Shown in pieces: positions 1 to 35,124 of a DNA stretch of 64,000 nucleotides. This DNA is from a virus (taxonomy: Duplodnaviria > Heunggongvirae > Uroviricota > Caudoviricetes): the IMG/VR virus record IMGVR_UViG_3300033069_001798, positions 1 to 64,000 of that record; one strand, given 5' to 3'. The notes beneath the pieces were generated by a model that made no database searches, was not told the origin of the DNA, and saw only the letters and a list, made by a program, of their open reading frames with translations. A program made the position numbers and the translations under genes. Each line of letters begins with the position of its first letter. Position 1 is the first letter of the stretch.

Positions 1-1
1 T

Positions 2-5155: not shown

Positions 5156-5180
5156 TGTGGGAAGGCGAGCTTCAAGGGGC

Positions 5181-8080: not shown

Positions 8081-8087
8081 AGGAACC

Positions 8088-8294: not shown

Positions 8295-8324
8295 GATGAC
8301 TAAAAACTGTCAGCTGGTGTTACG

Positions 8325-16720: not shown

Positions 16721-17480
16721 CAGCTTGTTCACGTTGTGCAACATTGTGATCATGCGTTGCACACAAACTTGAACACCAACGTCTTTGATTAAATGCTTTT
16801 ACTGAACCAAGTGTGATAGGTTCATGAGGCAAGAATGATTTCGAACAACGTATGCAAAATTTTGGTTCGAAATCATTAATATCAAATCTATTCTGCAACT
16901 CTGGTCTATGTTTACCGGTCATAGATTTTGATATTTTCAATCGTACATCTTCTGAACGATGCAAACCACTATTTTTCTTGTTACGATACAAGGTTGAACA
17001 TCTTCTAGAACAAAATTTTTGTGAAATAAATCCCTTAAGCCTCGATGCTGTCAATGCAGCGTGAGGATATATCATATTTTCGCATCCTGAACATGGTTTT
17101 GGTTTGGCATCTGGATGTGATGCATCAATTCTGCGCATGTGTGATGTCGACATCTTCAATCTAGTTTCATCGCTCGGACTTTTTATACCTTGACCGCCCA
17201 CTGTCAGATTATAACCGTGTGTTGAATCGTTAGATTTGAATTCGAGAATGAATTTTGTTTCATATTCATACGCCTCTTCTTCAGTGCTATATTCACCTAG
17301 TATATCAAATGTGAATTGATCGATCCCGTAGAGTTTTATCGCTCTTGCTACGTAACTTTTAGGCGTTCCGGCTTTAGATGATATGACATGTCTGTTAAGA
17401 CGTCCAAAAGGATTGTTAGATTTTCCAACATACTTTTTACCATCAACGTTATTTGTAATGCAATATACGTAAGAAGCCAC
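16611..17480 (-). CDS. GIY-YIG homing endonuclease with NUMOD-like C-terminal repeats
   Basis: 'YVYCITNNVDGKKYVGKSNNPFGRLNRH…YNLTVGG' is a GIY-YIG core. It is followed by repeated 'R(L)K(M/I)S.S..G' NUMOD3-like motifs. The gene is markedly AT-rich relative to its flanks. Confidence 0.8.
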   Translation of the reverse strand: MASYVYCITNNVDGKKYVGKSNNPFGRLNRHVISSKAGTPKSYVARAIKLYGIDQFTFDILGEYSTEEEAYEYETKFILEFKSNDSTHGYNLTVGGQGIKSPSDETRLKMSTSHMRRIDASHPDAKPKPCSGCENMIYPHAALTASRLKGFISQKFCSRRCSTLYRNKKNSGLHRSEDVRLKISKSMTGKHRPELQNRFDINDFEPKFCIRCSKSFLPHEPITLGSVKAFNQRRWCSSLCATHDHNVAQREQAAIRRRLRSDCARTTHPNDQNHRRCTPCTTAATILPL

Positions 17481-17856
17481 GTTTATTAGGTATTGACGAT
17501 CTCACTGCTACATCCCTAACAAATGGGTCTTGCATCAAGTAAGGCTCTGGCGCGATAGGCGGCACTGGTCCGTAATCATCTTCAACTGTTACGTACTCGT
17601 CTCTCAAGTGAGCTGTGATGTCATCATCTGGCTCTCCGAACTCTAGCTTTCCTAGAGCTTCCCTTGAGTTGATGTCTGAACCATTGTTAGGCGAGCGACC
17701 AGCGGGTTGAGGCGGCGATGCAAAGCCGCCGCCAACCTCTCTGAGGATCTCTTCTAGCACAATCTGCCGCACACGAGCGATCGTTATCTTCACCCTTGTA
17801 AGTATCCGGATTACAATGGTGCCATGAAGATATGGTGCTACATATGCATATCGCAA
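17449..17856 (-). CDS. hypothetical protein with the shared N-terminal 'ARVRQIVLEEILRE' motif (true start possibly GTG at 17793)
   Basis: 'KITIARVRQIVLEEILREVGGGFASPP…'. Confidence 0.4.
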   Translation of the reverse strand: MRYAYVAPYLHGTIVIRILTRVKITIARVRQIVLEEILREVGGGFASPPQPAGRSPNNGSDINSREALGKLEFGEPDDDITAHLRDEYVTVEDDYGPVPPIAPEPYLMQDPFVRDVAVRSSIPNKRGFLRILHYK

Positions 17857-17988
17857 GCAGCTTGGTTCCTTGGTTTTCGCAGCATCTCGTGCAAGTACTA
17901 CGTGCTTGCACTCCGCGAAAGAATATCAAAAGCGATGCCCGAGATAGAAGAGATAATCCGTGCCGCCTCGAGCGAATAATTAAGCTCC

Positions 17989-20121
17989 ATGAGTTACAGC
18001 TCAACTGAAGATACGGTAGAAGAGTACGTAAAGAGGTTGTTTTCTACCATGTCATCGAGCAACGTTGATACTGACAAATTGCCAGCCGCTATTAGGTTGC
18101 GCATGCGTCTTTTGAATAATCTCATTCGCGATGGAGCAACGTACTCAGTCTTCAAGAATGAATTCCAGAACCGCTTTGGAAACAAAGACGGCATAGATTC
18201 TTCAATGTTGCCAACGTTGCTGCGCCGCGTTGAGCAAGTCGAAGCAGCAGCAACAGAAAAAGGAAAAGGAGTTGAAGAGTTCGCAGACAGAAAGCTGCGC
18301 CTGTCAACGATAGAAGAGGTGGTGGTGAAGCTCGGCGCTCTTGACAACCAAAGAGATAGAATGAGAGCGCTGGCAAAAATTATCGATTCTATGGGCAAAA
18401 ATGTTTTCTCAAAGCTCATAAAAGTTTTCTTCTACAACGTTCTTGATAATATCGTCAGTGCCAGATCAGAGCTCCAGAAGAAAGAAATCATGTACGATTC
18501 AGAGATGTTTGAATCAATATGGAAGCGCTCTGCAAATGCTTGGATGAAGGAGAATCCTGCTGGTGCTTTTCATGATTTTTTTGATGATGTGATGGCAGAG
18601 TTTCTTCAATTTTCAAAGCTAGATGTTACCAGAACGAAGACAGAAAAAGAGCAGCGGATCGATGAGATCATCAAGATTGTCAGCAGCATATCCGAAGATG
18701 ATTGGGATGCTCTGCTGGTATCACCTGATTACAGGAAAGTTCAATTCAGCGCGCTGACGTCTTATCGAAACGATCTGGGCTCGCTCAAACGATACCTGAG
18801 CGTGGAATCTGACTTTGCTGTACAACGCGACCTTGAGTGCGCAAAAAAGTGCGTCGAAATAATAAAGTCTTGGGAGGATGAGAGCTCGTACGATGATGAA
18901 GCTCTAGATCGCGTGGTAGAGAAGTTGGCAACAGTTGCTAGCAATTTCAAGGAAATGCCACCGAGCACTAATTACGTCTTGAGCCAGTATCTTTACATAG
19001 TTGAACCTGCAGCAGATGTCATCCGAAGGTACCTGTTCGACGGCACCAACAAAGACATCTTTAGAGCAAAGGCTCACAGTCTTGCACGTGGAGGTGGAAA
19101 CCTCGTTGTCGAAGCTTTCGGAGAGCTAGCAAAGTACTACGAGATCGAGAAAAAAGCTCAAGCAGCGTTGAATAATTCAACGTTCAACGCAACTTGGAAC
19201 AGCATAAATGATAGCGTCAAAAAGCTGACCAATTACAAATGGTCGGAAGAAATATTTGAAAAGTACTTCGCAAAGATCGATCCAGTAGCAAAAGTTGACT
19301 ATATGGCATCGTGGTTTGAAGTTATCGGAACTATCAGAAGCGCGCTCAATCCGAATGATGAGACAGCTAAACTAAGAGCAGCTCGTCTTTGGGTGCAATC
19401 AGAAGACAATGAAAAGGCTCGTCTGCTCCAACGCATCAACGATGGCATCGACCGTTACGTTGAAGCTGTCAAAGTGGAGCGAGAAAAGCTACGAAAAAAC
19501 AGCAAGCCAGAAGCTTCACCTGACGATGAATTCGAAGAGTACCTCTTTGCTGATGAACGTCATAGTCAAGTTCCTGATGAACCAGACACTCGTGATGAGA
19601 AAGCACTTTACGATAAGCTAGAAGCTCACTTCGTTGCAAACGAAGCTCTATCAGAGGATGAAGCAAATCTGATCAAGAGGTTGATGGCAGACGGAAAGTA
19701 CAGCACAGTGCTGAAAAAGCCAGACGTTGAGCTTGTGTACAGGGGCATGGCTGTCAATGATGATTACCTTAGACGCGCTCTTGGTTTGGATGATGATGAA
19801 TCTCTTCCTCAGAAAGGTTCAAAAACGGCATCATTCACGTTCACGCCCAGGAATGGTGGAAGCTCGTCATGGTCGTTGCGGCACGAGTCAACGTTTGATT
19901 TCATGAACGGAAGTAAAGATTTCAACGTGCTGCTGATCGCTCGAACTTCTGACAATGACGGATCTTTCGTCAGCGGCCCTGGTGGTCTGTACAAAGTTGG
20001 CAAACTGGGCAAGCACGAAGACGAGCAAGAAGTCGTTGGTCTCGGAGCCATCAAGGTCGCAAAGATCATCTGGGATGAGCGTGGTGAATTCCCTGCGGTT
20101 GAAACTCAAGAGTCTACGTGA
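17989..20121 (+). CDS. hypothetical large acidic protein (710 aa)
   Basis: Long uninterrupted ORF. No motif I recognise. Confidence 0.6.
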   Translation: MSYSSTEDTVEEYVKRLFSTMSSSNVDTDKLPAAIRLRMRLLNNLIRDGATYSVFKNEFQNRFGNKDGIDSSMLPTLLRRVEQVEAAATEKGKGVEEFADRKLRLSTIEEVVVKLGALDNQRDRMRALAKIIDSMGKNVFSKLIKVFFYNVLDNIVSARSELQKKEIMYDSEMFESIWKRSANAWMKENPAGAFHDFFDDVMAEFLQFSKLDVTRTKTEKEQRIDEIIKIVSSISEDDWDALLVSPDYRKVQFSALTSYRNDLGSLKRYLSVESDFAVQRDLECAKKCVEIIKSWEDESSYDDEALDRVVEKLATVASNFKEMPPSTNYVLSQYLYIVEPAADVIRRYLFDGTNKDIFRAKAHSLARGGGNLVVEAFGELAKYYEIEKKAQAALNNSTFNATWNSINDSVKKLTNYKWSEEIFEKYFAKIDPVAKVDYMASWFEVIGTIRSALNPNDETAKLRAARLWVQSEDNEKARLLQRINDGIDRYVEAVKVEREKLRKNSKPEASPDDEFEEYLFADERHSQVPDEPDTRDEKALYDKLEAHFVANEALSEDEANLIKRLMADGKYSTVLKKPDVELVYRGMAVNDDYLRRALGLDDDESLPQKGSKTASFTFTPRNGGSSSWSLRHESTFDFMNGSKDFNVLLIARTSDNDGSFVSGPGGLYKVGKLGKHEDEQEVVGLGAIKVAKIIWDERGEFPAVETQEST

Positions 20122-20197
20122 GGCTCCATATTTAGCCGCTGGTGGTCACAGGATGCCCACAGTTAATTCAAAGAAAAAGAACCAAGGAAAACCACCT

Positions 20198-21013
20198 ATG
20201 CTTATAAGAATAAACGAGCTGAAGGAGCTCATCAGGGTAGCAGTCCTCAACGAAGTTGACATTGAAGACGTGGGTGACGTCTGCTTCGCAGCAGGTTCTA
20301 CTCACGTCATGAAGACGTGCAGCATCGGCGGTAACAAGTACTACTTGAAGTTCTCCGACGAGTCGTTGTTTGATGGCGTCAACCCAAGCTTGCAGATCCT
20401 AGTTGAGTACCTTGCGTACAAGGTTTACTCTCTGTACCCAGGCGTCGACATCCCAAACGTTGAGCTCGTGTACGATCGGAAAGGTGGCAAGGTTGGTCTT
20501 GCAACGTCGGCGGTTGCAGGCAAGATGGCTCTTGAAACGATCCCAGCTAAAGAGCTAGCGGGCATGCTTTCAGCTGGTGTCTACGTTGACATCTTCCTTG
20601 CAAACTGGGACGTCATCGGCACCGGATCGGGCAACGTCATCGCAGACAAAGGGAAGGCAACGCGCATCGACCCAGGCGGATCTTTGACGTTCAGAGCGCA
20701 AGGCGGTAGAAAAGGCGGAAAGTTCGGTGATAAGCCAGGCGAGCTGAAGACGATGCTAGATCCATCGTTCGGTGGCGCCGGGCGTGTCTACCAGCACGCA
20801 GACTTGGTGAAAGCTGGGAAGACTTTTGCATCAGTTCCTTGGAGCAGCATAGCCTCAACGCTCAGCGCCGCAAGCAAAGAAGTTGCTGAAGAGCTCAAGT
20901 CGCATGGAATGAACGATCTGGCTGCCGAATGGAACGGCGAAGCAAAGCTGATCGCTGGAACGCTGAAAGCCCGACATGCTGAAGTTATGCAGCACGTCGA
21001 GCACGTTGCGTAA
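20198..21013 (+). CDS. hypothetical protein with the shared N-terminal motif (MLIRINELKELIRVAVLNE…)
   Basis: AAGGAAAA Shine-Dalgarno 7 nt upstream of ATG 20198. The N-terminus matches the shared-motif family. A Gly-rich 'GGRKGGKFGDKPGE' stretch follows. Confidence 0.5.
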   Translation: MLIRINELKELIRVAVLNEVDIEDVGDVCFAAGSTHVMKTCSIGGNKYYLKFSDESLFDGVNPSLQILVEYLAYKVYSLYPGVDIPNVELVYDRKGGKVGLATSAVAGKMALETIPAKELAGMLSAGVYVDIFLANWDVIGTGSGNVIADKGKATRIDPGGSLTFRAQGGRKGGKFGDKPGELKTMLDPSFGGAGRVYQHADLVKAGKTFASVPWSSIASTLSAASKEVAEELKSHGMNDLAAEWNGEAKLIAGTLKARHAEVMQHVEHVA

Positions 21014-21297
21014 GCAGTTGAAATGTCGGATAATGATCGCCACAATACGCGCCCACGGGAAGTGTCATAGGGCGAAACCGCCACTGTAACACGATCACCT
21101 GGGATCAACCTGATCCTGTTGATGCGAAGCTTGCCAGACAGCGTGGCTAGAACTTTATTGCCGCCTTCTACGATGACGCTAAACAGCGTCCCAGGTAGAG
21201 CTTCATCCACCACGCCTTGAAGCTCAATCGCGTCTTCCCGCTCTGTTGTTTGCTCGGACGACTGACTGGCTTGGTTCATCTTGTTCTTGTTTTTCAT
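20788..21297 (-). CDS. infA: translation initiation factor IF-1 homolog (S1-like OB fold) with an anomalous 78-codon 3' extension
   Basis: 'IELQGVVDEALPGTLFSVIVEGGNKVLATLSGKLRINRIRLIPGDRVTVAVSPYDTSRGRVLWR' aligns along its full length with bacterial IF-1. The ORF lacks a stop where IF-1 ends (about 21021) and reads on antisense into the 3' end of the 20198-21013 gene. Confidence 0.7.
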   Translation of the reverse strand: MKNKNKMNQASQSSEQTTEREDAIELQGVVDEALPGTLFSVIVEGGNKVLATLSGKLRINRIRLIPGDRVTVAVSPYDTSRGRVLWRSLSDISTAYATCSTCCITSACRAFSVPAISFASPFHSAARSFIPCDLSSSATSLLAALSVEAMLLQGTDAKVFPAFTKSACW

Positions 21298-21460
21298 TCT
21301 CTATCTCTTCGCTCGGACTGCCCAATCCTGGAGGTGGAGGCACGACACCATTGTCTGACCTGCTTATACCTCCACCGCCGAACATCCCAGCAGATCGATT
21401 CATCATTCTTTCGATCTCTTCACGAACGATCTGCCTTACTCTTTCGACGTTGATTCGCAT
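21224..21460 (-). CDS. small protein with the shared N-terminal motif (MRINVERVRQIVREEIERMM…) and a Gly/Pro-rich tail
   Basis: Read directly from the sequence. Confidence 0.4.
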   Translation of the reverse strand: MRINVERVRQIVREEIERMMNRSAGMFGGGGISRSDNGVVPPPPGLGSPSEEIENEKQEQDEPSQSVVRANNRAGRRD

Positions 21461-21816
21461 CTACTAAATAAGTCAACAACGCTGATTATCTTGGTGCTCA
21501 ACGCAAGAATCCAACTTGACAATGCTTCAAAGTCACCAACAGTGATCTTCTTGCCAAAATCACCCGGGTGCACGTCACCATCTGGCAGGCCTGCATCACC
21601 GGCACGAAGAACAAAGATCTCACCGATCGCTGTGACCAGCGTAACCTTTGATCCTTCGCGTTCGGCAGCAACGATGCGTTGAAAAAAATCAGCTGCTAGC
21701 TGAGCTTGCACTTGATCTTCACGCGGCAGCACGTTAAAGCTTGCCGGCAACTCCATCTCTGCATTAACACCACCAACGTGCACATGGTGAGCTCCCTCAC
21801 CCAAGTCAAATTCCAT
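21436..21816 (-). CDS. hypothetical protein
   Basis: ORF. Start uncertain. Confidence 0.35.
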   Translation of the reverse strand: MEFDLGEGAHHVHVGGVNAEMELPASFNVLPREDQVQAQLAADFFQRIVAAEREGSKVTLVTAIGEIFVLRAGDAGLPDGDVHPGDFGKKITVGDFEALSSWILALSTKIISVVDLFSRCESTSKE

Positions 21817-21863
21817 CTGTAAATGTTACTGTACTTCGTACCAAGTTCATTGTACAATGATCT

Positions 21864-22064
21864 ATGCTCACGATACGGCCTGGCGATCTTGTCAAGCTCA
21901 ACCAGCTGTATCGCACGTTCAAAGGTTTCGTCATACCAGATGGTGCATTGGTGACGATCTTGTGGCACACTGACGACAAGACTGGCTTGTTCTATGAGCA
22001 CCAAACGTTCGAAGTTGCTACTTGGTGGATCATTGACAAAGTTGAGATTCTCAGCGATACTTAA
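21864..22064 (+). CDS. small GDLV-family protein
   Basis: 'MLTIRPGDLVKL…FVIPDGALVTILW'. Confidence 0.5.
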   Translation: MLTIRPGDLVKLNQLYRTFKGFVIPDGALVTILWHTDDKTGLFYEHQTFEVATWWIIDKVEILSDT

Positions 22065-22076
22065 CCTTGTCGGGCA

Positions 22077-22304
22077 ATGCTGAATATCGTTAGAATGTTC
22101 ACGGTGCTCGTCGAAGCAACATCATCAGATGAACATCCTTGGATACGCAAGCTACGCGCTGAAGCTGAAGGTTGCTGCGGTGAATGTGGCTCAAAGCACC
22201 CAGAGCGCGTTGTCAGGGGCGGTTTTTGGATCACGTTCAGCTGCCCCGAGTGTAGACACGCTTCAAAGATTCACATCAACACCAAAAACTCTGGAAGTGG
22301 GTGA
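22077..22304 (+). CDS. zinc-ribbon protein
   Basis: 'CCGECGSK…CPECRH' (CxxC…CxxC). Confidence 0.4.
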   Translation: MLNIVRMFTVLVEATSSDEHPWIRKLRAEAEGCCGECGSKHPERVVRGGFWITFSCPECRHASKIHINTKNSGSG

Positions 22305-22494
22305 TCTAGTCGCATGGTTTGGAAAAGGTGCAATCAAACCGCGGTTTGGATCGATCGTCAAGATCATGACTTCGTTCGGTGAAAATGTACGAGCGCACGA
22401 GATTGTAGTACTATGCTCTGACGGCACCTTGCAGACTGCTCTCTTTTGGGAATCTGAGCGTGGAAAATCTTGGAGAAAATTTGAATACGCCTAA
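22297..22494 (+). CDS. small GDLV-family protein (GTG start inside track ORF 22129-22494)
   Basis: GTGGGTGA junction; '(M)GDLVAWFGKG…VVLCSDGTLQTALF'. Confidence 0.35.
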   Translation: MGDLVAWFGKGAIKPRFGSIVKIMTSFGENVRAHEIVVLCSDGTLQTALFWESERGKSWRKFEYA

Positions 22495-22714
22495 GCCTGG
22501 TGATCTAGTGATGGCAAGGAAGCTGATCTTGGGATGGGCAGCGCCGCTCATCAGAAGACCATCATCCATAGCAATCAAGAGCGGCATGATTGCTGTGATC
22601 GTAAGATCTCAAAGCAAGGGTCAAAGAACTCACGTGTCGTTGCTGATCAACGGTCGTTTGTACGATTACGGGTGCGACACAGTTAGCTGGGACAGCAATT
22701 GGCTATCGTTGTAA
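22460..22714 (+). CDS. small GDLV-family protein
   Basis: 'NTPKPGDLVMARK…LLINGRLYDY'. Confidence 0.45.
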   Translation: MENLGENLNTPKPGDLVMARKLILGWAAPLIRRPSSIAIKSGMIAVIVRSQSKGQRTHVSLLINGRLYDYGCDTVSWDSNWLSL

Positions 22715-22717
22715 AAG

Positions 22718-22957
22718 ATGAAACCGGGCGACTTGGTAGAGACGCAGAGAGCAAGGGTTGTCACGGCCCTCAATTGCTCTGACCCTAACAAGTACTACGT
22801 GTTGAGCCCAAAAGACATTGGCATCGTCGTTCAAGTAGATGTTGGAAGCAACGAAATCCCAGACTACACTCTGTACGGGACGATCGTTGTATACTTTCCA
22901 AGCCTTGGTCGACTAACAACTGCTCATGAATCGCAGATAAAGCTTCTAGAAGCCTAG
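22718..22957 (+). CDS. small GDLV-family protein
   Basis: 'MKPGDLVETQ…VVYFPSLGRLTTAHESQIKLLEA'. Confidence 0.55.
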   Translation: MKPGDLVETQRARVVTALNCSDPNKYYVLSPKDIGIVVQVDVGSNEIPDYTLYGTIVVYFPSLGRLTTAHESQIKLLEA

Positions 22958-23143
22958 AAGTTCGTGGCTGAACAAGGGACCCATCATAGAGCCCTTGTTC
23001 AGCCACACGTAGTACACGCTCTCGTACTGGTAAGACTTATTCTGGTTCGCAGCTCTTACAGAGATGATGAGACCAGAGTCTTTAGTTGAAACGTATCCGT
23101 TGTTGTTTGCAATCGTGACAAGATCACCAACTTGGAATTTCAT
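22946..23143 (-). CDS. small GDLV-family protein (inverted copy)
   Basis: 'MKFQVGDLVTIANNNGYV…YYVWLNKG'. Confidence 0.45.
   Translation of the reverse strand: MKFQVGDLVTIANNNGYVSTKDSGLIISVRAANQNKSYQYESVYYVWLNKGSMMGPLFSHELLGF
22954..22996. terminator. 15-bp perfect-stem hairpin (gtggctgaacaaggg/cccttgttcagccac, 13-nt loop) at the convergence point of the + and - gene blocks
   Basis: Read directly from the sequence. It starts at the stop of the + gene and overlaps the last codons of the - gene. There is no U-tract. Confidence 0.5.
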
Positions 23144-23161
23144 CTTCTCAATAAGTAAAAC

Positions 23162-23572
23162 TCACTTCTTGCTAGACGGGTATTTCTTCTTGAAGACGAG
23201 CAGCGTGCCACGAAGCAAGATCAACGCATCATCATGAAGCACTCGAGCCGCTCCTTCTTTGAATGCTGCTATGATCGTGCTCAAGAACATGTAGATTCCA
23301 ACGGTGCAGATGATTCCAACCATTGACATCTTCACCAGCAGGCCCACTAGAACGATGACAACAGAGATGAACATCGTTTCAAGCTTCGCGCTGTAAACTT
23401 CCTTGCTGACGGTCACTGAGTTGCCGTACATATCAGCAAGGAACTGAATCGTGCTGAATGACATCTTCTCGCCGTGCGAGACAGACTCCCAGTCAATGTC
23501 CTCGATCTTTACGTTCTCTTCTTTGTTCAACTCTTCATTGATCATCTTTTTCACTATCCTTGGTGTCTTCAA
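23162..23572 (-). CDS. membrane protein (2-3 TM helices)
   Basis: Hydrophobic segments 'FISVVIVLVGLLV', 'MVGIICTVGIYMFLSTIIAAF'. Lies immediately downstream of GroEL. Confidence 0.45.
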   Translation of the reverse strand: MKTPRIVKKMINEELNKEENVKIEDIDWESVSHGEKMSFSTIQFLADMYGNSVTVSKEVYSAKLETMFISVVIVLVGLLVKMSMVGIICTVGIYMFLSTIIAAFKEGAARVLHDDALILLRGTLLVFKKKYPSSKK

Positions 23573-25160
23573 CTATCACTGCGCCGATAGACAAAAATGT
23601 GATTGCTACTGAAACTGCGTTCTTCAAAGCCGTCCTGGAAACTTTCACTGGATCGATGATGCCATGAGCAAACATGTCAACTTCTCTGTCGCTTGCAGCG
23701 TCGTAACCACGAAACTGGATGTCTGACTTGATCATTCCACTTCGTAGATTGTTGATGACGACTTCATGTGACTTTCCGGCATTCGAAACGATCGTCTGCA
23801 AGGGTGCTAGGATTGATGTCATGACAAGCTTTGCACCAACATCATCTTGAGGCACGTCAACCATCCACGTGGCATTGAAGAATGCAGTTCCGCCGCCAGC
23901 TACGATGCCCTCGGCGACCGCTGCTCGCGTTGCGTTCAGAGCATCTTCGATGCGATACTTCTTCTCAATCATCTCAAGCTCAGTTGAGCCTCCGACCTTG
24001 ATGACAGCAACGCCAGAAGCAAGCCGCGCGATGCGCACCTTCAACTTTGTCACTTCATCAGTTGTTAGCGTCACGTCTTCGAGCTGCGTCCTAAGATTTG
24101 CAACGTGAGCGTCAACAGCGGGCCGAGATGCGCCAGCTCCGACCAACGTTGTCGACTTAGCATCAACGACGACCTTCTTGACAGTACCAAGATCGTTGAG
24201 CTCAAGCTTCTCGATCTTCAATCCAGCAGCTGGCGACACAACTGTCGTACCAGTAAGAACTGCGATATCGTGAAGCAGTTCATCCTTGTGTTTTCCGTAA
24301 CCCGGTGCTTTGACAGCAACGACTGCTAGGTTCGCATTGACGCGGTTGACGACCAGTCCTTGCATCGCTTCACCATCAACATCTTCGGCAATGATGAGCA
24401 GCTTTGACTGGGATCTTACGACTTTCTCAAGCAGAGGAATCAGCTCGCTCAGCGATGATAGTTTCTTGTCAGTGACAAGAACGCGAGCATCATTGTAAGT
24501 GACATTCATTCGTTCTTGGTTGGTGACGAAGTAAGGGCTCAAGTAACCACGCTCGAACTGCATACCTTCGACAGTTTCAAGCGTTGTCTCCATTCCTTTT
24601 GCATCCTCAACGGTGATGATGCCGTCAGATCCGACCTTCTCCATCGCATCAGCGATGAGGTTGCCGATGCGACCGTCGCCGTTCGCAGAGATCGTGCCGA
24701 CCTGAGCGATCTCTTCTTTGGTCGTCAGCTTCTTAGCAGATTTCACAAGGTATTCATCGACTAGCACTCGAGCTCGTTCCATCCCTTCGCACAGCTCTTT
24801 TGCTTCAAACCCTGCTTCAAGGTACTTCAACCCACCCTTGACTAGAGCGTAAGTCAACACCGTTGCTGTCGTTGTGCCATCACCAGCAACCTCGTTCGTC
24901 TGTGATGCTGCCTCCCTGATCAGATCTGCTCCCATCCTTTCAACTGGATCTTTGGGCCTGACTGACTTTGAAACCGTAACGCCGTCCTTGGTGACAACTG
25001 GCGGTCCATCTTTCTTCTGGATGACGACTGTCTTTCCTTTCGGTCCCAGCGTGCATGCAACGCTTTCAGCTGTGCACTCTATTCCTCGATAGAGTCTACG
25101 CCTCGCGTCGTTCTTGAAGAAAACTTTCGTAATGTTGTGTGTCTCGACGTCATTGATCAT
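23535..25160 (-). CDS. groEL: chaperonin GroEL (Cpn60)
   Basis: 'CTLGPKGKTVVI…KDGVTV' and 'AGDGTTTATVL' are signature motifs. The protein is GroEL-like along its full length. Confidence 0.9.
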   Translation of the reverse strand: MINDVETHNITKVFFKNDARRRLYRGIECTAESVACTLGPKGKTVVIQKKDGPPVVTKDGVTVSKSVRPKDPVERMGADLIREAASQTNEVAGDGTTTATVLTYALVKGGLKYLEAGFEAKELCEGMERARVLVDEYLVKSAKKLTTKEEIAQVGTISANGDGRIGNLIADAMEKVGSDGIITVEDAKGMETTLETVEGMQFERGYLSPYFVTNQERMNVTYNDARVLVTDKKLSSLSELIPLLEKVVRSQSKLLIIAEDVDGEAMQGLVVNRVNANLAVVAVKAPGYGKHKDELLHDIAVLTGTTVVSPAAGLKIEKLELNDLGTVKKVVVDAKSTTLVGAGASRPAVDAHVANLRTQLEDVTLTTDEVTKLKVRIARLASGVAVIKVGGSTELEMIEKKYRIEDALNATRAAVAEGIVAGGGTAFFNATWMVDVPQDDVGAKLVMTSILAPLQTIVSNAGKSHEVVINNLRSGMIKSDIQFRGYDAASDREVDMFAHGIIDPVKVSRTALKNAVSVAITFLSIGAVIVEDTKDSEKDDQ

Positions 25161-25480
25161 GGTACCTTCATTTTACCACAATCTGACGCAGTGTTCAGAA
25201 GTAACTTTTCCTTAGTCACTGGTAGTTGAACCGGTCGGCCTTTTCGCCATGATACCGCAACTGTGCCTTTTCTGTACTTGTCAAGGAGATCTTTCAACAC
25301 TACTTTCTGCTGCACGTCATCAACCGAATCAATGCACTTCAGAAGCTTGTGTTCAGTGAAATCAATCACCTTGCTCATGATCCCGCTGAACAACATCAAT
25401 TGAGATTTGTGCAGCTGGAATTCAGTACCGTCCGTGAGTGATCCCTTAGAAGGTGTTCTAGTTGCCATCTTAATTCTCAT
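25157..25480 (-). CDS. hypothetical protein upstream of GroEL, overlapping it by ATGA (possible co-chaperonin analog, unproven)
   Basis: Position only. No GroES or gp31 motif recognised. Confidence 0.4.
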   Translation of the reverse strand: MRIKMATRTPSKGSLTDGTEFQLHKSQLMLFSGIMSKVIDFTEHKLLKCIDSVDDVQQKVVLKDLLDKYRKGTVAVSWRKGRPVQLPVTKEKLLLNTASDCGKMKVP

Positions 25481-25505
25481 GATAAGTAGTCACTCCGAGC
25501 CCATA

Positions 25506-26438
25506 TCATTTAGGTATGTTGAACATCGATGCCATGAGGTCAACGCTAAGATTCTTGTGCTTAGCTTCGACTTCTACGGCGATTGTATCATCCCTAAGCC
25601 CACGGAGCTGACAATCAGGAACATGATGGATGTAGTCGCTATGCTTCCTCCTGTCAATAAATGAACCGTTCAACAATGAAGGCTCAGTGTTTGATATGTG
25701 CTGAAGAGGTATCACACCTTTCGGCCATGTCAACTGTGTTACATTGAACGCTTCGTCAGCAGTTAGCTCGCCGTCGTTGAACGTATGATGGTGCGAATCC
25801 CACACGATCGGCACGCCAGTTTCCTTGTAGACGGGTAGCAAGTCGACGACAGAGTACGCTGACTCATCGTTCTCAAGCGTAAGCCTAGACCGAACAGACT
25901 GTGGCAACGAACGAATGCCATCAACGAGCCGTGAATGACGGTCACCCTTACCACCGTGAATGTTGATTGCTGCGTGCGGCGACCGCGGGAGACCCATGGC
26001 ATCAAAGATCCAGCCATGAAGTGACAACTCGTTGAAAGAATTCTCAACAACGCGGTCAGAATCGGACGATATGACGCAGAACTGACCTGGGTGCGTTGTC
26101 AACCGTATACCACGTGAGATTGCTGCTGTGCCAGCACGCTGCAACTCTGCACGAACCGCAGGATTGTCCCACGTCTTGCGAGGCACTTTATCAGCAAGCG
26201 GGAACAGAGATGACGAAATTCGAAATAGACGAATCCCCGCTGCTGACACCTTGGGTATCATCGCAGCGAGGTTCTTGATGTTGCTGATGTACGTAACACG
26301 GATCTGCTCGTCAGTGTACGCGCCGCGCTGGAACCTTCCCAGCTGCAACGTACGTTCAGACATCTCATTGACGAGAACAGTGTTACCCGTGCGTGGTTGC
26401 ACGTGAGACTTAAGCCAATGGCAGCAAACGCCTAGCAT
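25506..26438 (-). CDS. uvdE: UV damage endonuclease UvdE
   Basis: 'FRISSSLFPLA', 'THPGQFCVISS', 'INIHGGKG', 'RLTLENDESAY' and 'PIVWDSHHH' are colinear with the conserved blocks of UvsE/UVDE. Confidence 0.85.
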   Translation of the reverse strand: MLGVCCHWLKSHVQPRTGNTVLVNEMSERTLQLGRFQRGAYTDEQIRVTYISNIKNLAAMIPKVSAAGIRLFRISSSLFPLADKVPRKTWDNPAVRAELQRAGTAAISRGIRLTTHPGQFCVISSDSDRVVENSFNELSLHGWIFDAMGLPRSPHAAINIHGGKGDRHSRLVDGIRSLPQSVRSRLTLENDESAYSVVDLLPVYKETGVPIVWDSHHHTFNDGELTADEAFNVTQLTWPKGVIPLQHISNTEPSLLNGSFIDRRKHSDYIHHVPDCQLRGLRDDTIAVEVEAKHKNLSVDLMASMFNIPK

Positions 26439-26471
26439 TGATTCAATCTTACATCTGTGCAGATCAAAGTT

Positions 26472-26708
26472 TCACTTCTTCTTGTTGCCAAACACTAGCT
26501 TTTTCAGCATCTTGTTGAACTCTCTAGCCTCACTGACCTTTGCAATACCAATCTTCCCAGGATACTGTAGACGCAGTTGAGCGTAAAATTTCTTCAGCTG
26601 CGCGGGCGTAACAGGCTTCAAGGGCGCGGGCTTAAATTCTCCTTTTTGTTCAGACTGAACCCATTCTAGCTTCGTAGTAAGATCACTAAGGTTTCTAGCG
26701 GTGGACAA
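26472..26708 (-). CDS. small lysine-rich protein
   Basis: Read directly from the sequence. Confidence 0.35.
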   Translation of the reverse strand: MSTARNLSDLTTKLEWVQSEQKGEFKPAPLKPVTPAQLKKFYAQLRLQYPGKIGIAKVSEAREFNKMLKKLVFGNKKK

Positions 26709-28558
26709 AAAGGGGCGTCGCCCTCGGGGCCGCCTCCTTCTTCGTTCTCTTCACCTTCAAGATCTTCAGTGATAGGACCGTTATCGGGCGGATCAGTCTT
26801 CATGGAGTGATCATCAAGTGTTGTCACTTCAGGCGCTGGATCATCCTCGTACTTCTCGAGGCGAGCAACACGCTTCGAGAGCTCGATCGTAGACTCAGAT
26901 GCTTCAGCGGCAGACATGAACCGACGCCTCTTCACGTACTCTTGGATGAAGGCGATGGGCCAATTCTTGACGAGCTCGTAAGCCTCATCAGCGTAAGTTC
27001 CAAGGATCGACCTGACAACATCACCGTCCATTGTCTTCACAAACAACATCTCATCGAAGCGACCAGGGCGAAGGATTGCCTCATCAAGACTGTTACGATT
27101 GTTGACAGTTGCGATGACAAGCTTCACGTGCCTCTGGAAGAACTCGAGCGTCTCGAGCAGCTGCGCCTGCGCATGCGCTCTGTCAAAGTCATCCAAGATG
27201 ATTGCATCGGGTTCAAAGATCGTGATAGCCTCAAAGAGCGTAGAGCTCTCAAGGTTAGCAACATCCTCAACGCGAATTCGGAAGCTGCGCATGCCAAGGT
27301 TCTCCACGATGGTTCGAGCCATCGTAGACTTTCCAGTCCCCGGCGGACCGTACAGCATCACTGACCGCGGCACGTCAGCGTCGATGCACCGCTTCAAGTA
27401 TGCTGCGTACGAAGTTGCTCTCTCAGATGCAAGGGGATGAAAGGCATCGTCAGATTCAAACACGATCCTAGAATCATCGTCAGACGTTCCGACGCGCTTG
27501 TTCTGCCTCATGACGAGGTTTGAATCTTTCAAAGATTCCCACAAGATCTTCTTGATGAGAGCTTGAGCCTCTTTCAACTTCGCAGTGTCAACGTAGATGT
27601 TGCCGGGAACGTTGAGACGGGTGTTCATCGTGTAACCCATCTTGATGCCATCAGCATCGATCATGCGAATGATCGTAGCATCATCGTTGGTGCGAATGTT
27701 CTCGTAAGGATATCGACTGACGACCTTGATGATCGTAGAGTTGAAGTCCCTGCTGTAAGGTGCAGACCACTCATCACCAGAGAAGAAATCATCTCCCCAC
27801 ACTTCAAACTGCTCAATGAGCACTTTGGAGATCGAGAAGCTGCTCTTCAAACCGTTCCACCAGGTGGGATCTTCCAAGAAGGGCGTTGATGCTTGAAAGA
27901 TGTCAGTTCCAACGTGGATGACTTGCTTCACCTTGCTCACGTTGAAGAAATCTCTAACTTGCGTCACTAGCGTCTTGTTCTTTTCAGTCATTTTGTCTCG
28001 TGGTGCTAAAAATTCAACGTTGTAACGAACTCGCTTGTTTGCTTTTGACGTGAAAGTCACGTCGCACTCTTCGTACTTCCCGTCTACGATCGCCGCCCCC
28101 ACGACCTTTGTAACATGCTCATAATCTGGATCGACGTACGTCATGATGAAGAATGCTCGACCCGTTGTCAGGGGTGCTAGTTTCTTGATGACTACGTTCT
28201 CAAAAGAATTCTTTGCAGTGTTTTCAACATCTGACCAATAGATCTTTGGGATGCTGATGAACTCGTAACCTGCTTGTGGGTAAGCGCACCGCTTGCAGAA
28301 ACGAGCGTCATTATCGTTCATCGCCTTGCACTGGCTGCACTCTTTTGCCTCGCCGCAATTGTCATACTCATGAACAACATCGTCGATGAACGTGCAACAC
28401 ATGTCGCCGTGCTCTTCTTGGATGTTCCTTAGATCTGACACCTTCACTTTCAAAGTGCTGTGGAACGTCGTGATGCTATCGATGACAGATTTCTTGGCTT
28501 TGGTGCTTGGTGCCATAAGTTGAAATGTACCCTGCAGATCAGCTATTTTACAAGCCAC
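26666..28558 (-). CDS. AAA+ ATPase with an N-terminal Cys-rich zinc-finger region
   Basis: 'VMLYGPPGTGKST' is a Walker A motif and 'AIILDDFD' a Walker B motif. The N-terminus has 'CSQCKAMNDNDARFCKRCAYP'. Confidence 0.8.
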   Translation of the reverse strand: MACKIADLQGTFQLMAPSTKAKKSVIDSITTFHSTLKVKVSDLRNIQEEHGDMCCTFIDDVVHEYDNCGEAKECSQCKAMNDNDARFCKRCAYPQAGYEFISIPKIYWSDVENTAKNSFENVVIKKLAPLTTGRAFFIMTYVDPDYEHVTKVVGAAIVDGKYEECDVTFTSKANKRVRYNVEFLAPRDKMTEKNKTLVTQVRDFFNVSKVKQVIHVGTDIFQASTPFLEDPTWWNGLKSSFSISKVLIEQFEVWGDDFFSGDEWSAPYSRDFNSTIIKVVSRYPYENIRTNDDATIIRMIDADGIKMGYTMNTRLNVPGNIYVDTAKLKEAQALIKKILWESLKDSNLVMRQNKRVGTSDDDSRIVFESDDAFHPLASERATSYAAYLKRCIDADVPRSVMLYGPPGTGKSTMARTIVENLGMRSFRIRVEDVANLESSTLFEAITIFEPDAIILDDFDRAHAQAQLLETLEFFQRHVKLVIATVNNRNSLDEAILRPGRFDEMLFVKTMDGDVVRSILGTYADEAYELVKNWPIAFIQEYVKRRRFMSAAEASESTIELSKRVARLEKYEDDPAPEVTTLDDHSMKTDPPDNGPITEDLEGEENEEGGGPEGDAPFCPPLETLVILLRS

Positions 28559-28562
28559 AGCT

Positions 28563-29481
28563 TCAAGCGTACTTGCACATCAGCTGCTCACCAAGATCCT
28601 TGAGGAACTGTACACCGTAGTTACCATCACGGCTAGCTTCAAGGTCGGTTTCAAGGAAGCTCGGCAACACTTCGTCAGAGTAGCGTGCAGATGCAATGCC
28701 CCATGCGATCGCAGCGACAGAGTCTGTGTCACCACCCCCAGCTCGCAACTCGAGACATGATACCCGCTAGCGATTTTTCTTCGACAAGCAACGTATGAAC
28801 AGCCCAAGCCGTGTTCCAACCGAGGCCACGATCCCCCGGCTGCTTCGGTCGAGCCTTCACAGGGCCCTCCCAGGGCTTCGAGAAATAATCAAAAGAATCT
28901 AGGTAACGGCTACACCATCCTAGCATGTGATTAAAATCTCGACGATCGTAGAGGGCATAATGCGACATCAATGCAACAGCGATCGAGGAGTTGATGCCAC
29001 CCCACGTGGCATGCGTCGTAGCTGCTTGCAACCCAGCGTAGCGAACGACGGCATCTGGATCTTTGATGACGCCTATGGGAACCGAGCGCATCGCTGCACC
29101 GTTCTTGTCGGAATTTGGTTGAAGCTTCAGCTTCAGCTCATCACCGTTCTTCGAAGACTCTAGTAGCTCTTGCATCGCTCTGCTGTAACCATCGCGTGGA
29201 TCTCTTGCATGAACTTCCCAAAATTTGCCAACAAAATCAACGGCGCTGGGTGATTCGCTGGTGCACAGCAACTCTGCGATCGCAATGCTCTGCTGGGTAT
29301 CATCTGAGTACCAGCCCGGTTTCATCAGCTCGTACGTTGGGTGCTGAACGTAACGATTCATAGAGCCAACAGCTTCAAAAAGCTCGCCATGCTTCTCTTT
29401 ATCGATGAATTCGATGCCCAACGCCAATGCATCTGCTTGCGCAATGCGCAGCAGCATGTTGCTGTTCTTACGTCTCATCAT
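28563..29481 (-). pseudogene. ADP-ribosylglycohydrolase (ARH family) split by a frameshift at a G5 run (or a sequencing error)
   Basis: The 250-aa ORF 28729-29481 has the N-terminal ARH motif 'AQADALALGIE'. The C-terminal ARH motif 'GGDTDSVAAIAWGIA' lies in the next frame (ORF 28563-28748). The frames meet at minus-strand 'GCTGGGGGTGGTGA' (plus strand 28729-28740). Deleting one G restores '…SWGGDTDSVAAIAWG…'. Confidence 0.6.
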
Positions 29482-29726
29482 AGGTGCCTTATGAAGGTTC
29501 GAAGCACGAAGAAAGAATCACCCAACGAAGGAACGATGACTTTTGCGTAATCTGGTCCCAAGTGCGTGAGGATGCACATCGTGTTCTTTTTCAGAATTAC
29601 ACCACGTGTGCCGCTGTCGTTCTGAACAAACGTATCCCAAGAAACGTAACACAATTCTGTTTCTATCAATTGCGTCACCTTCAACGTAAAACGTGCAACG
29701 AATTCGCTTACTGGGCTTAGCCCCAT
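29478..29726 (-). CDS. hypothetical small protein
   Basis: Fills a slot in the minus-strand operon; ATGA junction. Confidence 0.3.
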   Translation of the reverse strand: MGLSPVSEFVARFTLKVTQLIETELCYVSWDTFVQNDSGTRGVILKKNTMCILTHLGPDYAKVIVPSLGDSFFVLRTFIRHL

Positions 29727-30049
29727 CGTCGATGAGGTCTCCTGTTCCTGTCAACGTTGCCATCCAGCGCATCGTTCAAAATTTGGGACGCAATTGACCA
29801 CAAATCTTCTTCTGAACGAACCCTTCTGTTGAACTGCGCGTTCTGAACTTTGGCTCCAGCATCGTCTAGGCCAATGCGCTGGAGCTCTTCACCGAGCCAG
29901 TTAGCAGTCGTTATCACTTCTTTAGTTCTGACATCGCATGACCAGTTCGCCGGTCTTCCAGCGCTGTGCCCAGCGAATAGTCTTTCAATGTTGCGCTGAA
30001 CGTTCTCTCTGACCATGTCAGGAGAATAGCGCGGTGCTACTTTTTCCAT
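29717..30049 (-). CDS. hypothetical protein
   Basis: ORF adjacent to Fpg. Confidence 0.4.
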   Translation of the reverse strand: MEKVAPRYSPDMVRENVQRNIERLFAGHSAGRPANWSCDVRTKEVITTANWLGEELQRIGLDDAGAKVQNAQFNRRVRSEEDLWSIASQILNDALDGNVDRNRRPHRRWG

Positions 30050-30052
30050 CTT

Positions 30053-31619: not shown

Positions 31620-31643
31620 TGTAATTCGTCTAGCTGAGCAAGT

Positions 31644-33162: not shown

Positions 33163-33169
33163 TATTCTC

Positions 33170-35108: not shown

Positions 35109-35124
35109 GTACTCTAAGTATTGA

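What the first reader, a model, noticed from the sequence alone, without database searches (positions are those of the whole stretch)
20788..21297. Bacterial-type IF-1 homolog in a viral genome, whose ORF runs past the expected stop into the neighbouring gene
The first roughly 90 residues align end-to-end with bacterial IF-1 (S1/OB fold). Virus-encoded IF-1 is rare, and it implies manipulation of host translation initiation.

The ORF has no stop where IF-1 ends and continues 78 codons antisense through the 3' end of the 20198-21013 gene. The extension has shadow-frame composition, Ser/Ala/Cys-rich. This points to a lost stop (decay), an error, or a real overlapping tail.
Basis: seen in the sequence. 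Interest (0 to 1): 0.6.

Follow-up and report, generated by a model that had tools for sequence, protein, structure and literature searches.

The report
Phage genes that end at TTA
The phage IF-1 gene only looks stop-less: this jumbo-phage lineage never uses the leucine codon TTA inside genes and places it where about a quarter of its genes, IF-1 included, should end, which would be the first sense-to-stop codon change seen outside organelles.

Summary
ORF 20788..21297(-) is 169 codons. Residues 24-87 match the whole IF-1 Pfam model, and the ORF then runs 226 nt antisense into the conserved 3' end of gene 20198..21013.

It is not a sequencing error or simple decay. A 97%-identical independent assembly has the same ORF, and two more diverged lineages also lack a standard stop there.

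In all three lineages the codon at the position where four standard-code relatives have their stop (within one or two codons) is TTA. This is genome-wide:
- TTA is essentially absent from bona fide coding sequence (9 per 11,315 core codons, all explained; 43-94 expected).
- Half of the in-frame TTAs lie in the last 10% of standard-code ORFs.
- TTA overlaps or directly precedes the next gene's start (TTATG; TTA-RBS-ATG).
- TTA aligns with the standard stops of orthologues.
- Standard-code relatives use TTA as ordinary Leu, one of them inside its IF-1 domain.

Best reading: TTA acts as a fourth terminator in this clade, so IF-1 is a normal 88-aa protein (21031..21297) that does not overlap its neighbour. 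The mechanism is unknown (variant RF2, or an unassigned codon), no host was identified, and all evidence is computational.

UUA-as-stop is known only from organelles, and I found no bacterial or phage report.

The parts
21031..21297 (-). IF-1 gene as it most likely functions: 88 codons plus the terminal TTA
   Evidence: PF01176 matches residues 24-87 in full, E = 2.6e-19 on the 88-aa product. PDB IF-1 chains align to residues 20-88. Relatives end within 0-2 residues of this point.
21031..21033 (-). TTA codon (codon 89) at the expected stop position; proposed terminator
   Evidence: The same codon is TTA in L001 and L010. L007 has TGA at that codon and L012 has TAA. L017 and L018 have their stops 1-2 codons later. 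The genome-wide behaviour of TTA is shown.
20788..21030 (-). Apparent C-terminal tail of the standard-code ORF (80 sense codons plus TAG); most likely untranslated
   Evidence: It is antisense to the conserved C-terminus of gene D. It is absent from, or unrelated in, all relatives. Composition is 44% Ser+Ala+Cys.
20198..21013 (+). Convergent gene D (271 aa, unknown function, TAA stop)
   Evidence: It is 72% identical to the L001 and L010 orthologues through to the C-terminus. Synteny is conserved. Under a TTA stop, a 17-nt spacer (21014..21030) separates it from IF-1.
21224..21460 (-). Upstream gene B (78 aa); its ORF overlaps the IF-1 start by 74 nt
   Evidence: It lies upstream of IF-1 in every lineage examined, in a +1 frame relation. 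In L012 (P0007) it is fused in frame with IF-1.
21469..21816 (-). Gene A (115 aa); also ends at TTA (21469..21471), 8 nt before the ATG of gene B
   Evidence: The sequence context is GAC TTA tttagtag ATG. The standard-code ORF would overlap B by 25 nt.
1..64000 (.). Genome-wide use of TTA as a gene end (35 of 127 modelled genes) and its absence as a sense codon

Best explanation
The IF-1 gene is an intact gene for an ordinary-sized protein of 88 aa: a 69-residue IF-1 OB-fold domain plus a basic N-terminal extension. Its translation ends at the TTA codon at 21031..21033.

In this jumbo-phage clade TTA (UUA) has left the sense-codon repertoire and serves as a fourth terminator alongside TGA, TAA and TAG. 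The clade comprises the window with its 91-99% relatives L014/L015/L095/L096/L195/L196, the L001-L006 lineage and the L009-L011 lineage. The 81-codon 'tail' is an artefact of reading the DNA with the standard code.

Shown:
- TTA is missing from coding sequence.
- TTA sits at gene ends.
- TTA aligns with the stops of orthologues.

Inferred:
- Ribosomes actually release the peptide at UUA.
- How they do it. The likeliest route, by analogy with organelles, is a release factor 2 with altered codon recognition, either host- or phage-encoded. The alternative is that no tRNA-Leu(UAA) is available in the infected cell, and the stalled ribosome is released by a normal RF at low rate or by a rescue factor.
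For: (1) Position of the TTA in IF-1. TTA is the codon directly after the IF-1 domain in the window, L001 and L010. The orthologues L007 (TGA), L012 (TAA), L017 and L018 stop at that codon or 1-2 codons later.

(2) The sequence after the TTA is non-coding spacer. In L001 and L010 a conserved small ORF (MRL[RQ]RI...) starts 9 nt and 11 nt after the TTA respectively. It is therefore in frame with IF-1 in one lineage and out of frame in the other.

(3) Depletion inside genes.
- In 21 confident window ORFs, in-frame TTA is 1.6 per 1000 codons against 10-12 per 1000 in the other two frames.
- Core codons of ORFs of at least 100 aa hold 9 TTA in 11,315 codons. Relatives of similar GC predict 43-94 (Poisson P about 4e-10).
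- L001 (GC 0.40) has 2 in 2,425 against 36-70 expected.
- All 9 window cases are in-frame gene junctions, lie upstream of true starts, fall in one shadow ORF, or are the IF-1 TTA itself.

(4) Position within ORFs. Of 56 in-frame TTAs in 113 standard-code ORFs, 50% lie in the last tenth of the ORF (next highest codon 18%). 39% lie within the last 10 codons (binomial P about 9e-14).

(5) Gene-junction anatomy.
- TTATG overlaps, where the next gene's ATG shares the A of TTA: 34296, 57352, 5892, 36817, 40592.
- TTA followed by an RBS and then ATG: 60468 to 60454, 55703 to 55683, 45845 (TTAGGAGACACAATG).
- TTA is followed by a new ORF start in 45% of cases, like TGA (55%), TAA (35%) and TAG (31%). 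Sense codons give 18%.

(6) Orthologue ends.
- L001 '..LPVTKEI*' against window '..LPVTKEK-TTA'.
- UvdE in L001 '..HLPR-TTA-TAA' against window '..NIPK*'.
- 19 distant homologues of ORF 38626..39843 are 324-361 aa and end at query residues 334-349; its TTA is codon 344 of 405.
- The 443-aa AAA protein of L001 matches the window's 630-aa ORF only after the in-frame TTA (codon 184) and ATG (codon 190).

(7) Clade specificity. The relatives L012, L016, L017 and L097 use TTA as normal Leu: inside Cpn60 and gene D in L097, and inside the IF-1 domain in L017.

(8) A four-stop gene model lowers overlaps longer than 10 nt from 45 to 32, and total overlap from 2,278 to 1,399 nt.

(9) Every terminal TTA is conserved in close relatives, for example 9 of 9 in L195 at 93% nucleotide identity.
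Against: - All evidence is comparative or statistical. There are no protein or ribosome data.
- No release-factor gene, RF-type GGQ motif or tRNA gene was found. I searched the window and about 10 kb of extra sequence from a 97% relative. That covers under a third of a roughly 314-kb genome.
- The host is unknown, so loss of tRNA-Leu(UAA) or a variant RF2 could not be examined.
- No conserved sequence context around terminal TTAs was found. There is only a weak preference for C at position +4.
- Substitution patterns in the post-TTA tails against a 93% relative were uninformative: 2 changes in 195 nt.
- The 74-nt overlap of gene B with the IF-1 start is not explained by this model.
- Low-level read-through giving a minor extended isoform cannot be excluded.
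Confidence: 0.77

Rival explanations
1. Standard code with TTA as a strongly avoided rare Leu codon. IF-1 is really made as a 169-aa protein whose tail overlaps gene D. TTA is tolerated only in unimportant C-terminal tails.
For: - The ORF is open to 20788 and is identical in L014.
- Gene callers using the standard code produced extended products in relatives: P0002 at 140 aa, and P0010 and P0011 at 404 and 401 aa.
- Rare-codon avoidance alone could explain the depletion.
Against: - The tails are not conserved in length, sequence or frame.
- TTA coincides with orthologues' stops in several genes.
- There are TTATG start overlaps, and in-frame TTA-ATG junctions between genes that are separate in relatives.
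- Other AT-rich codons show no C-terminal enrichment. TAT, for example, has 3% in the last tenth of ORFs.
- The distance from TTA to the next standard stop looks like random sequence.
Confidence: 0.08
2. TTA is not read by a release factor. It is an unassigned or 'hungry' codon, because tRNA-Leu(UAA) is absent or destroyed during infection. Ribosomes stall there and are resolved by rescue systems or slow near-cognate RF action. The phage purged TTA from its genes so that it can translate in such cells. This is a mechanistic variant of the best explanation.
For: - It fits the same depletion and gene-end data.
- No phage RF was found.
- The window carries an RNA ligase (37673..38677; phrog_548, E = 6e-37). 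From general knowledge, phage RNA ligases of this family are associated with repair of tRNAs cut by host anticodon nucleases. Huge phages are reported to carry genes for ligating tRNAs cleaved by host defences (PMC7162821).
Against: - Relying on stalling for about 28% of genes would be slow. If tmRNA handled the stalls, the products would be tagged for degradation.
- TTATG start overlaps suggest efficient termination-reinitiation coupling, as at true stops.
- In organelles, UUA termination goes with RF changes (PMC12574857).
Confidence: 0.12
3. Stop-codon loss or decay: a TAA-to-TTA mutation destroyed the IF-1 stop, and the gene is degenerating or merely tolerates a junk tail.
For: TTA is one substitution away from TAA. 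Relatives have TAA or TGA at or next to this position.
Against: - The same TTA persists in three lineages whose IF-1 proteins are about 65% identical, with the domain fully conserved.
- The same 'loss' would have to have struck about 35 genes in this window, and the orthologous genes of relatives.
- TTA is absent from coding interiors.
Confidence: 0.02
4. Sequencing or assembly error at the stop codon.
For: None beyond prior plausibility for metagenomic contigs.
Against: - L014 has an identical ORF, and the same terminal TTAs occur in L015, L095, L096, L195 and L196, which come from three other metagenome assemblies (IMG/VR 3300033121, ENA ERZ28655916, JGI 3300014059).
- The P0002 cluster is on 16 contigs; the six shown come from six runs.
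Confidence: 0.01

Closest known systems
UUA-as-stop genetic codes of organelles: labyrinthulean (Thraustochytrium) mitochondria (NCBI translation table 23, from my own knowledge), peDinoflagellate plastids (UUA/UCA), and Marsupiomonadales and Pseudoscourfieldia mitochondria (UUA/UUG)
   Same: The same codon changes from Leu to stop. The same diagnostic signature applies: the codon is absent inside coding sequences and is found where homologues have termination codons. A large share of genes end with it (PMC12574857).
   Different: - Those are small organellar genomes. The change there is tied to specific substitutions in organellar RF2 (Ser204) or RF1a, and that paper calls the plastid case the first sense-to-stop change outside mitochondria.
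- Here it is a jumbo bacteriophage using bacterial-type translation.
- TTG and TCA remain ordinary sense codons here.
- No RF or tRNA change has been identified.
Stop-codon recoding in phages (TAG to Gln, TGA to Trp) in Lak megaphages, crAss-like phages and other huge phages
   Same: These are phage lineages whose genes are mis-called under the standard code. The trait is clade-specific, and huge phages carry translation genes including IF1, RF1 and RF2 (PMC7162821; PMC8346664 and PMC7886860 listed).
   Different: The direction is opposite. There a stop becomes sense, giving fragmented ORFs. Here a sense codon becomes a stop, giving artificially extended and fused ORFs. TAG, TGA and TAA all still end genes in this window.
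Bacterial IF-1 (InfA) and phage-encoded IF-1 of huge phages
   Same: - Full-length PF01176 match.
- 51% identity to E. coli IF-1 in the alignment, and a strong match to Clostridioides IF-1 (PDB 6c00, E = 5e-21).
- The SGK.R.N.IR, PGD and SPYD..RGR motifs are conserved.
- With a TTA stop the length is normal.
   Different: - It has a roughly 20-residue Lys/Asn-rich N-terminal extension shared with phage relatives.
- Its start lies inside the upstream gene B ORF, and it is fused to B in one relative.
- No activity has been tested.
TTA/bldA rare-codon regulation in Streptomyces (from general knowledge)
   Same: TTA is nearly absent from genes, and its decoding depends on a single tRNA-Leu(UAA).
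   Different: In Streptomyces TTA is still Leu, it occurs inside a subset of genes as a regulatory device, and its rarity follows from a GC content above 70%. Here GC is 40-50% and TTA lies at gene ends.

Membership tests
Translation initiation factor IF-1 (PF01176, S1-like OB fold) | Full-length match to the family model above its curated threshold | tested here: met
   66.8 bits against a cut-off of 30.2; residues 24-87 match model positions 1-64 of 64. It scores 69.1 bits on the 88-aa product.
Translation initiation factor IF-1 (PF01176, S1-like OB fold) | Single-domain protein of about 70-90 aa that ends 1-3 residues after the OB fold | tested here: inconclusive
   Met if TTA terminates (88 aa). 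Not met under the standard code (169 aa). PDB chains end 1-2 residues past query residue 87/88.
Translation initiation factor IF-1 (PF01176, S1-like OB fold) | Conservation of the residues shared by bacterial and phage IF-1 | tested here: met
   Invariant in the 11-sequence alignment that includes E. coli IF-1: D22 E32 L34 P35 F39 V49 S54 G55 K56 R58 I62 G67 D68 V70 P76 Y77 D78 G82 R83 R87.
Translation initiation factor IF-1 (PF01176, S1-like OB fold) | Binds the 30S A site and acts in initiation | not testable with these tools
   No biochemical data. This is inferred from homology only.
Sense-to-stop reassigned genetic code (UUA = stop) | The codon is absent from conserved positions of coding sequences | tested here: met
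   There is no TTA in Cpn60, AAA, UvdE, gene D, the 710-aa gene or the IF-1 domain of the clade. The 9 and 2 residual 'core' TTAs are all explained. Outgroups use TTA in the same genes.
Sense-to-stop reassigned genetic code (UUA = stop) | The codon occurs where homologues have termination codons | tested here: met
   Seen for IF-1, the 96-aa gene and UvdE, ORF 38626..39843 against 19 homologues, and the AAA gene junction.
Sense-to-stop reassigned genetic code (UUA = stop) | Loss or inactivation of the cognate tRNA-Leu(UAA) | not testable with these tools
   The host is unknown. No tRNA genes were found on the phage fragments examined.
Sense-to-stop reassigned genetic code (UUA = stop) | A release factor with altered codon-recognition region | tested here: inconclusive
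   No RF domain or RF-type GGQ motif was found in about 75 kb of a roughly 314-kb genome. An RF2 scan of IMG/VR returned 8 loci, none TTA-depleted.
Sense-to-stop reassigned genetic code (UUA = stop) | Protein-level proof of termination at the codon | not testable with these tools
   This needs proteomics, ribosome profiling or an expression experiment.
Stop-to-sense recoded phages (genetic codes 4 and 15) | In-frame TGA or TAG inside conserved genes, with ORFs fragmented under the standard code | tested here: not met
   Long ORFs are intact under the standard code, and TGA, TAG and TAA all terminate genes: 68, 9 and 15 of 127.

The most novel reading that the evidence does not exclude
A clade of jumbo bacteriophages, and possibly their unknown bacterial hosts, uses a genetic code in which the leucine codon UUA has become a translation terminator ending about a quarter of genes. 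This would be the first sense-to-stop codon reassignment outside mitochondria and plastids, and the first alternative phage code that adds a stop rather than removing one.
Probability: 0.7. Interest if true: 0.95.

Novelty: new variant of a known kind. Interest (0 to 1): 0.87.

Why it matters
- **Genetic codes.** If UUA terminates translation here, sense-to-stop reassignment is not confined to tiny organellar genomes. It can arise in a virus of more than 300 kb using bacterial ribosomes. That opens a tractable question: which release factor or tRNA change does it, and is it a host property or something the phage imposes?

- **Annotation.** Standard-code gene callers systematically mis-annotate these genomes.
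  - They produce C-terminal extensions, such as this IF-1, and P0002, P0010 and P0011 in the public protein collection.
  - They fuse neighbouring genes, such as FEN with the next gene, or the 183-aa gene with the AAA gene.
  - They create spurious overlaps.
  - From my own knowledge of how Codetta works, codon-inference tools that assign amino acids to codons cannot report a codon that has become a stop. Similar codes may therefore be hidden in existing data.

- **Phage-host conflict and synthetic biology.** Purging one sense codon would make a phage indifferent to loss of that tRNA. This is speculation, not something tested here.

- **The original finding.** The phage IF-1 is an intact, ordinary-length gene, not a decaying one.

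Tried and rejected
- **DNA similarity.** A near-identity search of INPHARED phages found no match.
- **Exact product look-up.** The 169-aa product is not on record in the contig index.
- **Terminator or non-stop mRNA idea.** No canonical terminator lies between IF-1 and gene D. A hairpin inside the 3' end of D folds at z = -2.45, which is not decisive.
- **Frameshifting at the TTA to reach a nearby stop.** The -1 frame stops only after 17 codons and the +1 frame has no nearby stop (read from the sequence). Rejected.
- **Stop-to-sense recoding as the reason for few long ORFs in 1..12000.** Rejected. That region is about 40 small plus-strand genes chained by ATGA overlaps.
- **Sequence context around terminal TTAs.** Only a weak preference for C at +4.
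- **Substitution pattern in post-TTA tails against the 93% relative L195.** Too few changes to tell: 2 in 195 nt.
- **Search for a mechanism.**
  - Pfam and PHROG scans of 70 window proteins and 10 extra proteins found no release factor.
  - A GGQ motif scan found nothing RF-like.
  - ARAGORN and Rfam found no tRNA, tmRNA or other RNA family.
- **Host identification.** A search of GTDB genomes with the phage epimerase gave only hits of 37% identity or less.
- **Metagenome scan with gene D.** It returned 10 relatives. In L097 TTA lies inside Cpn60 and gene D, and in L098 inside gene D and a 762-aa ORF, so both use TTA as Leu; the other eight loci are short and were not examined gene by gene. 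No new clade members were found.
- **Literature.** Four searches found no report of UUA or any other sense codon as a stop in bacteria or phages.
Full report
**1. The observation**

The ORF at 20788..21297 on the minus strand is real: ATG start, 169 codons, TAG stop.
- Pfam's IF-1/eIF-1A model matches residues 24-87 across its whole length, E = 1.3e-18 and 66.8 bits against a threshold of 30.2.
- Solved bacterial IF-1 structures of 71-73 residues align to residues 20-87/88 and finish 1-2 residues later.
- Ahead of the domain is a roughly 20-residue Lys/Asn-rich extension. Bacterial IF-1 lacks it but phage relatives share it.
- After the domain there is no TAA, TAG or TGA. The frame runs on for 81 sense codons and overlaps the convergent gene D (20198..21013, +) by 226 nt.
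- The tail is 44% Ser+Ala+Cys. It is antisense to a C-terminus of D that is conserved in relatives.

**2. It is not an error**

A scan of IMG/VR with gene D returned L014 (IMGVR_UViG_3300033121_002167). This is an independent assembly 97% identical to the window over 9.5 kb. It carries exactly the same 169-codon ORF. The surrounding 781 nt differ at three positions, so it is not the same sequence record.

Further close relatives exist:
- L196, a 313,755-bp JGI contig 99.5% identical to the window.
- L195, an ENA contig at 93%.

The virus is thus a jumbo phage. Its window carries Cpn60, UvdE, thymidylate synthase, thymidine kinase, dCMP deaminase, RNA ligase, a flap endonuclease, GIY-YIG homing endonucleases and a major-vault-protein-like gene. 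Phage IF-1 is uncommon but known (PMC7162821).

**3. Where relatives end**

Nine homologues were found.
- Most stop immediately after the domain (...WRR*, ...RRK*).
- Two clusters also lack the stop: P0002 (140 aa, on 16 contigs; the six shown come from six runs) and P0003 (100 aa). Their tails are unrelated to the window's tail and to each other.

Synteny is conserved across lineages: gene A, gene B, then IF-1, converging on gene D and a roughly 710-aa gene.

At codon level the result is striking. The codon directly after ...R-[RS] is TTA in the window, in L001 and in L010. L007 has TGA at that same codon and L012 has TAA there. L018 and L017 stop 1-2 codons later.

In L001 and L010 a conserved small hydrophobic ORF (MRL[RQ]RI...) begins 9 nt and 11 nt after the TTA. 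It is in frame with IF-1 in L001, which produces the spurious 140-aa 'fusion', and out of frame in L010. The sequence after the TTA therefore behaves as an intergenic spacer, not as coding sequence.

**4. TTA across the genome**

*Depletion.* In 21 confident ORFs (8,352 codons) TTA occurs in frame 13 times, 1.6 per 1000. It occurs at 10-12 per 1000 in the other two frames, and the other Leu codons run at 10-18 per 1000.

*Position.* In a wider set of 113 standard-code ORFs (20,252 codons):
- The 56 in-frame TTAs have a median relative position of 0.90.
- 50% lie in the last tenth of the ORF. The next highest codon reaches 18%.
- 39% lie within the last ten codons (binomial P about 9e-14).

*Junction anatomy*.
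- TTATG overlaps, in which the annotated ATG of the next gene shares the A of TTA: 34296, 57352, and also 5892, 36817 and 40592.
- TTA, then a purine-rich RBS, then ATG: 60468 to 60454, 55703 to 55683, and 45845 (TTAGGAGACACAATG).
- TTA, 8 nt, then the ATG of gene B (21469).

*Apparently internal TTAs are gene junctions.*
- The 630-aa ORF 26666..28558 is two genes. The L001 AAA protein (443 aa) aligns only downstream of TTA-184 and ATG-190.
- The 397-aa 'flap endonuclease' ORF is a 284-aa FEN followed, after TTA CTC GTT ATG, by a gene that opens with the same MKIKLRELK-type N-terminus as several other genes.

*Behaviour like a stop.*
- TTA is followed by a new ORF start as often as true stops are: 45% against 31-55%. 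Sense codons give 18%.
- The distance from terminal TTAs to the next standard stop looks like random sequence.
- A four-stop gene model gives stops TGA 68, TTA 35, TAA 15 and TAG 9. It cuts overlaps longer than 10 nt from 45 to 32.

**5. Orthologue ends beyond IF-1**
- L001 '...LPVTKEI*' against window '...LPVTKEK-TTA'.
- L001 UvdE '...HLPR-TTA-TAA' against window '...NIPK*'.
- Nineteen distant homologues of ORF 38626..39843 are 324-361 aa long. Their alignments end at query residues 334-349, and the TTA is codon 344 of 405.
- All terminal TTAs are conserved in the close relatives, for example 9 of 9 in L195 at 93% identity. Two standard stops changed identity over the same distance.

**6. Clade specificity**

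Using Cpn60 and gene D as probes I collected about 90 related loci.

| Locus or group | GC | TTA per 1000 core codons |
|---|---|---|
| Window, L014, L015 | 0.49-0.50 | 0.7-0.8 |
| L001-L004 | 0.38-0.40 | 0.8-2.4 (off-frame TTA about 21) |
| Loci of similar GC to the window | about 0.47-0.50 | 3.8-8.3 |
| Loci of similar GC to L001 | about 0.40 | 15-29 |

The deficits correspond to Poisson P of about 4e-10 for the window and 1e-13 for L001.

The closest outgroups use TTA as ordinary leucine:
- L097 has TTA inside Cpn60 and inside gene D.
- L012 has 36 per 1000, evenly spread.
- L017 has TTA inside its IF-1 domain, at SPYD-L-TRG.

The trait is therefore a derived character of the window + L001 + L010 clade. 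It has persisted while GC content diverged from 40% to 50%.

**7. Interpretation**

The simplest account of all this is that TTA (UUA) no longer encodes leucine in this clade and acts as a terminator. On that reading:
- IF-1 is an 88-aa protein encoded by 21031..21297.
- It is separated from gene D's TAA (21011..21013) by a 17-nt spacer.
- The 'tail' is an artefact of standard-code translation.

What is shown is the codon's distribution and its correspondence with orthologues' stops. That ribosomes release at UUA is an inference.

The mechanism is not established. In organelles with UUA stops the change is linked to substitutions in RF2 or RF1a (PMC12574857). Huge phages can carry RF1 and RF2 (PMC7162821). 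I found no RF, no RF-type GGQ motif, no tRNA and no Rfam family in the window or in about 10 kb of extra sequence from the 97% relative. That is less than a third of a roughly 314-kb genome.

The alternative is that tRNA-Leu(UAA) is unavailable in infected cells and stalled ribosomes are released slowly or by rescue factors. The window's RNA ligase is compatible with a tRNA-damage scenario, but this is speculation. The host could not be identified.

**8. Rivals**
- A real 169-aa protein under the standard code is contradicted by the non-conserved, frame-inconsistent tails, by the orthologue stops and by the junction anatomy.
- Stop loss or decay would have to have hit about 35 genes here and their orthologues while sparing every coding interior.
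- Error is excluded by independent assemblies.

**9. Comparison with known systems, and novelty**

IF-1 itself is a new member of a known kind. The coding anomaly resembles NCBI translation table 23 and the recently described plastid and mitochondrial UUA/UUR stops. [quoted passage not shown]

Alternative codes in phages are known only in the stop-to-sense direction. Four literature searches found no bacterial or phage case. I therefore rate it a new variant of a known kind, of high interest. The caveat is that everything rests on sequence analysis.

**10. Unexplained**

Gene B's ORF overlaps the IF-1 start by 74 nt. This overlap is conserved in six lineages and replaced by an in-frame fusion in a seventh. 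The TTA model does not address this.

Noticed in passing
window 21224..21460 (-) and 21224..21297; L012:6985-7428: The ORF of upstream gene B overlaps the IF-1 start by 74 nt, with IF-1 in the +1 frame. The same 56-74-nt overlap occurs in L001, L010, L007, L017 and L018. In L012 B and IF-1 form one in-frame 147-aa ORF (P0007). The junction is a purine-rich stretch that reads E/K-rich in both frames. A B-IF-1 fusion by +1 frameshifting, or reinitiation, is possible.
   Followed up: partly
window starts at 21460, 20198, 35980, 46826, 59741, 32824 (and L012:7572): Several otherwise unrelated genes begin with a similar roughly 20-residue N-terminal motif, M.(I/L)..(E/Q)L(R/K)..(I/V)RE.. Examples are MRINVERVRQIVREE, MLIRINELKELIR, MKIKLRELKSMI and MRLTIGQLRQIIRES. 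It may be a shared leader or targeting sequence.
   Followed up: partly
window 26666..28558 (-) and 35648..36841 (-): Two long standard-code ORFs are each two genes joined in frame across a TTA. One is a 183-aa gene plus a 434-aa AAA ATPase. The other is a 284-aa flap endonuclease plus a 110-aa gene. Public gene calls in relatives carry the same artificial fusions (398-aa FEN and 619-aa AAA in L195).
   Followed up: yes
window 12034..14697 (+): An 887-aa protein with major vault protein shoulder and repeat domains and an SPFH/Band-7 signal (MVP_shoulder E = 2e-30). This is an unusual domain for a phage.
   Followed up: no
window 38678..38811 (-): A 134-nt spacer lies between the TTA end of the 343-aa gene and the RNA ligase start. 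It is almost invariant against the 93% relative L195, with 1 change, while the flanking genes differ by about 8%. It holds three TTAs in 13 codons and a possible 44-codon ORF. It may be a regulatory element or a small gene.
   Followed up: no
L001:10379-10381: The TTA that would end the small hydrophobic gene C is the reverse complement of the convergent gene D's TAA stop. With TTA as a stop, one trinucleotide terminates both strands.
   Followed up: partly
window 36817..37479 (-): This GIY-YIG/NUMOD homing endonuclease gene is present in the window and in L196 but absent from the 93% relative L195. This is consistent with a mobile insertion between the RNA ligase and FEN genes.
   Followed up: no
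window 1..12000 (+): There are about 40 small ORFs (66-120 aa) on one strand, mostly chained by ATGA start/stop overlaps. None has a family match, and only 4 end in TTA. This looks like an early-gene block. It also differs most from the 97% relative, with indels and 90-93% identity.
   Followed up: partly
window 20975..21005 (-): An 11-13-bp hairpin (CGACGUGCUGC...GCAUGUCGGG) lies inside the 3' end of gene D, just downstream of the IF-1 TTA. The fold z-score is -2.45. It could be a transcript 3' end.
   Followed up: partly
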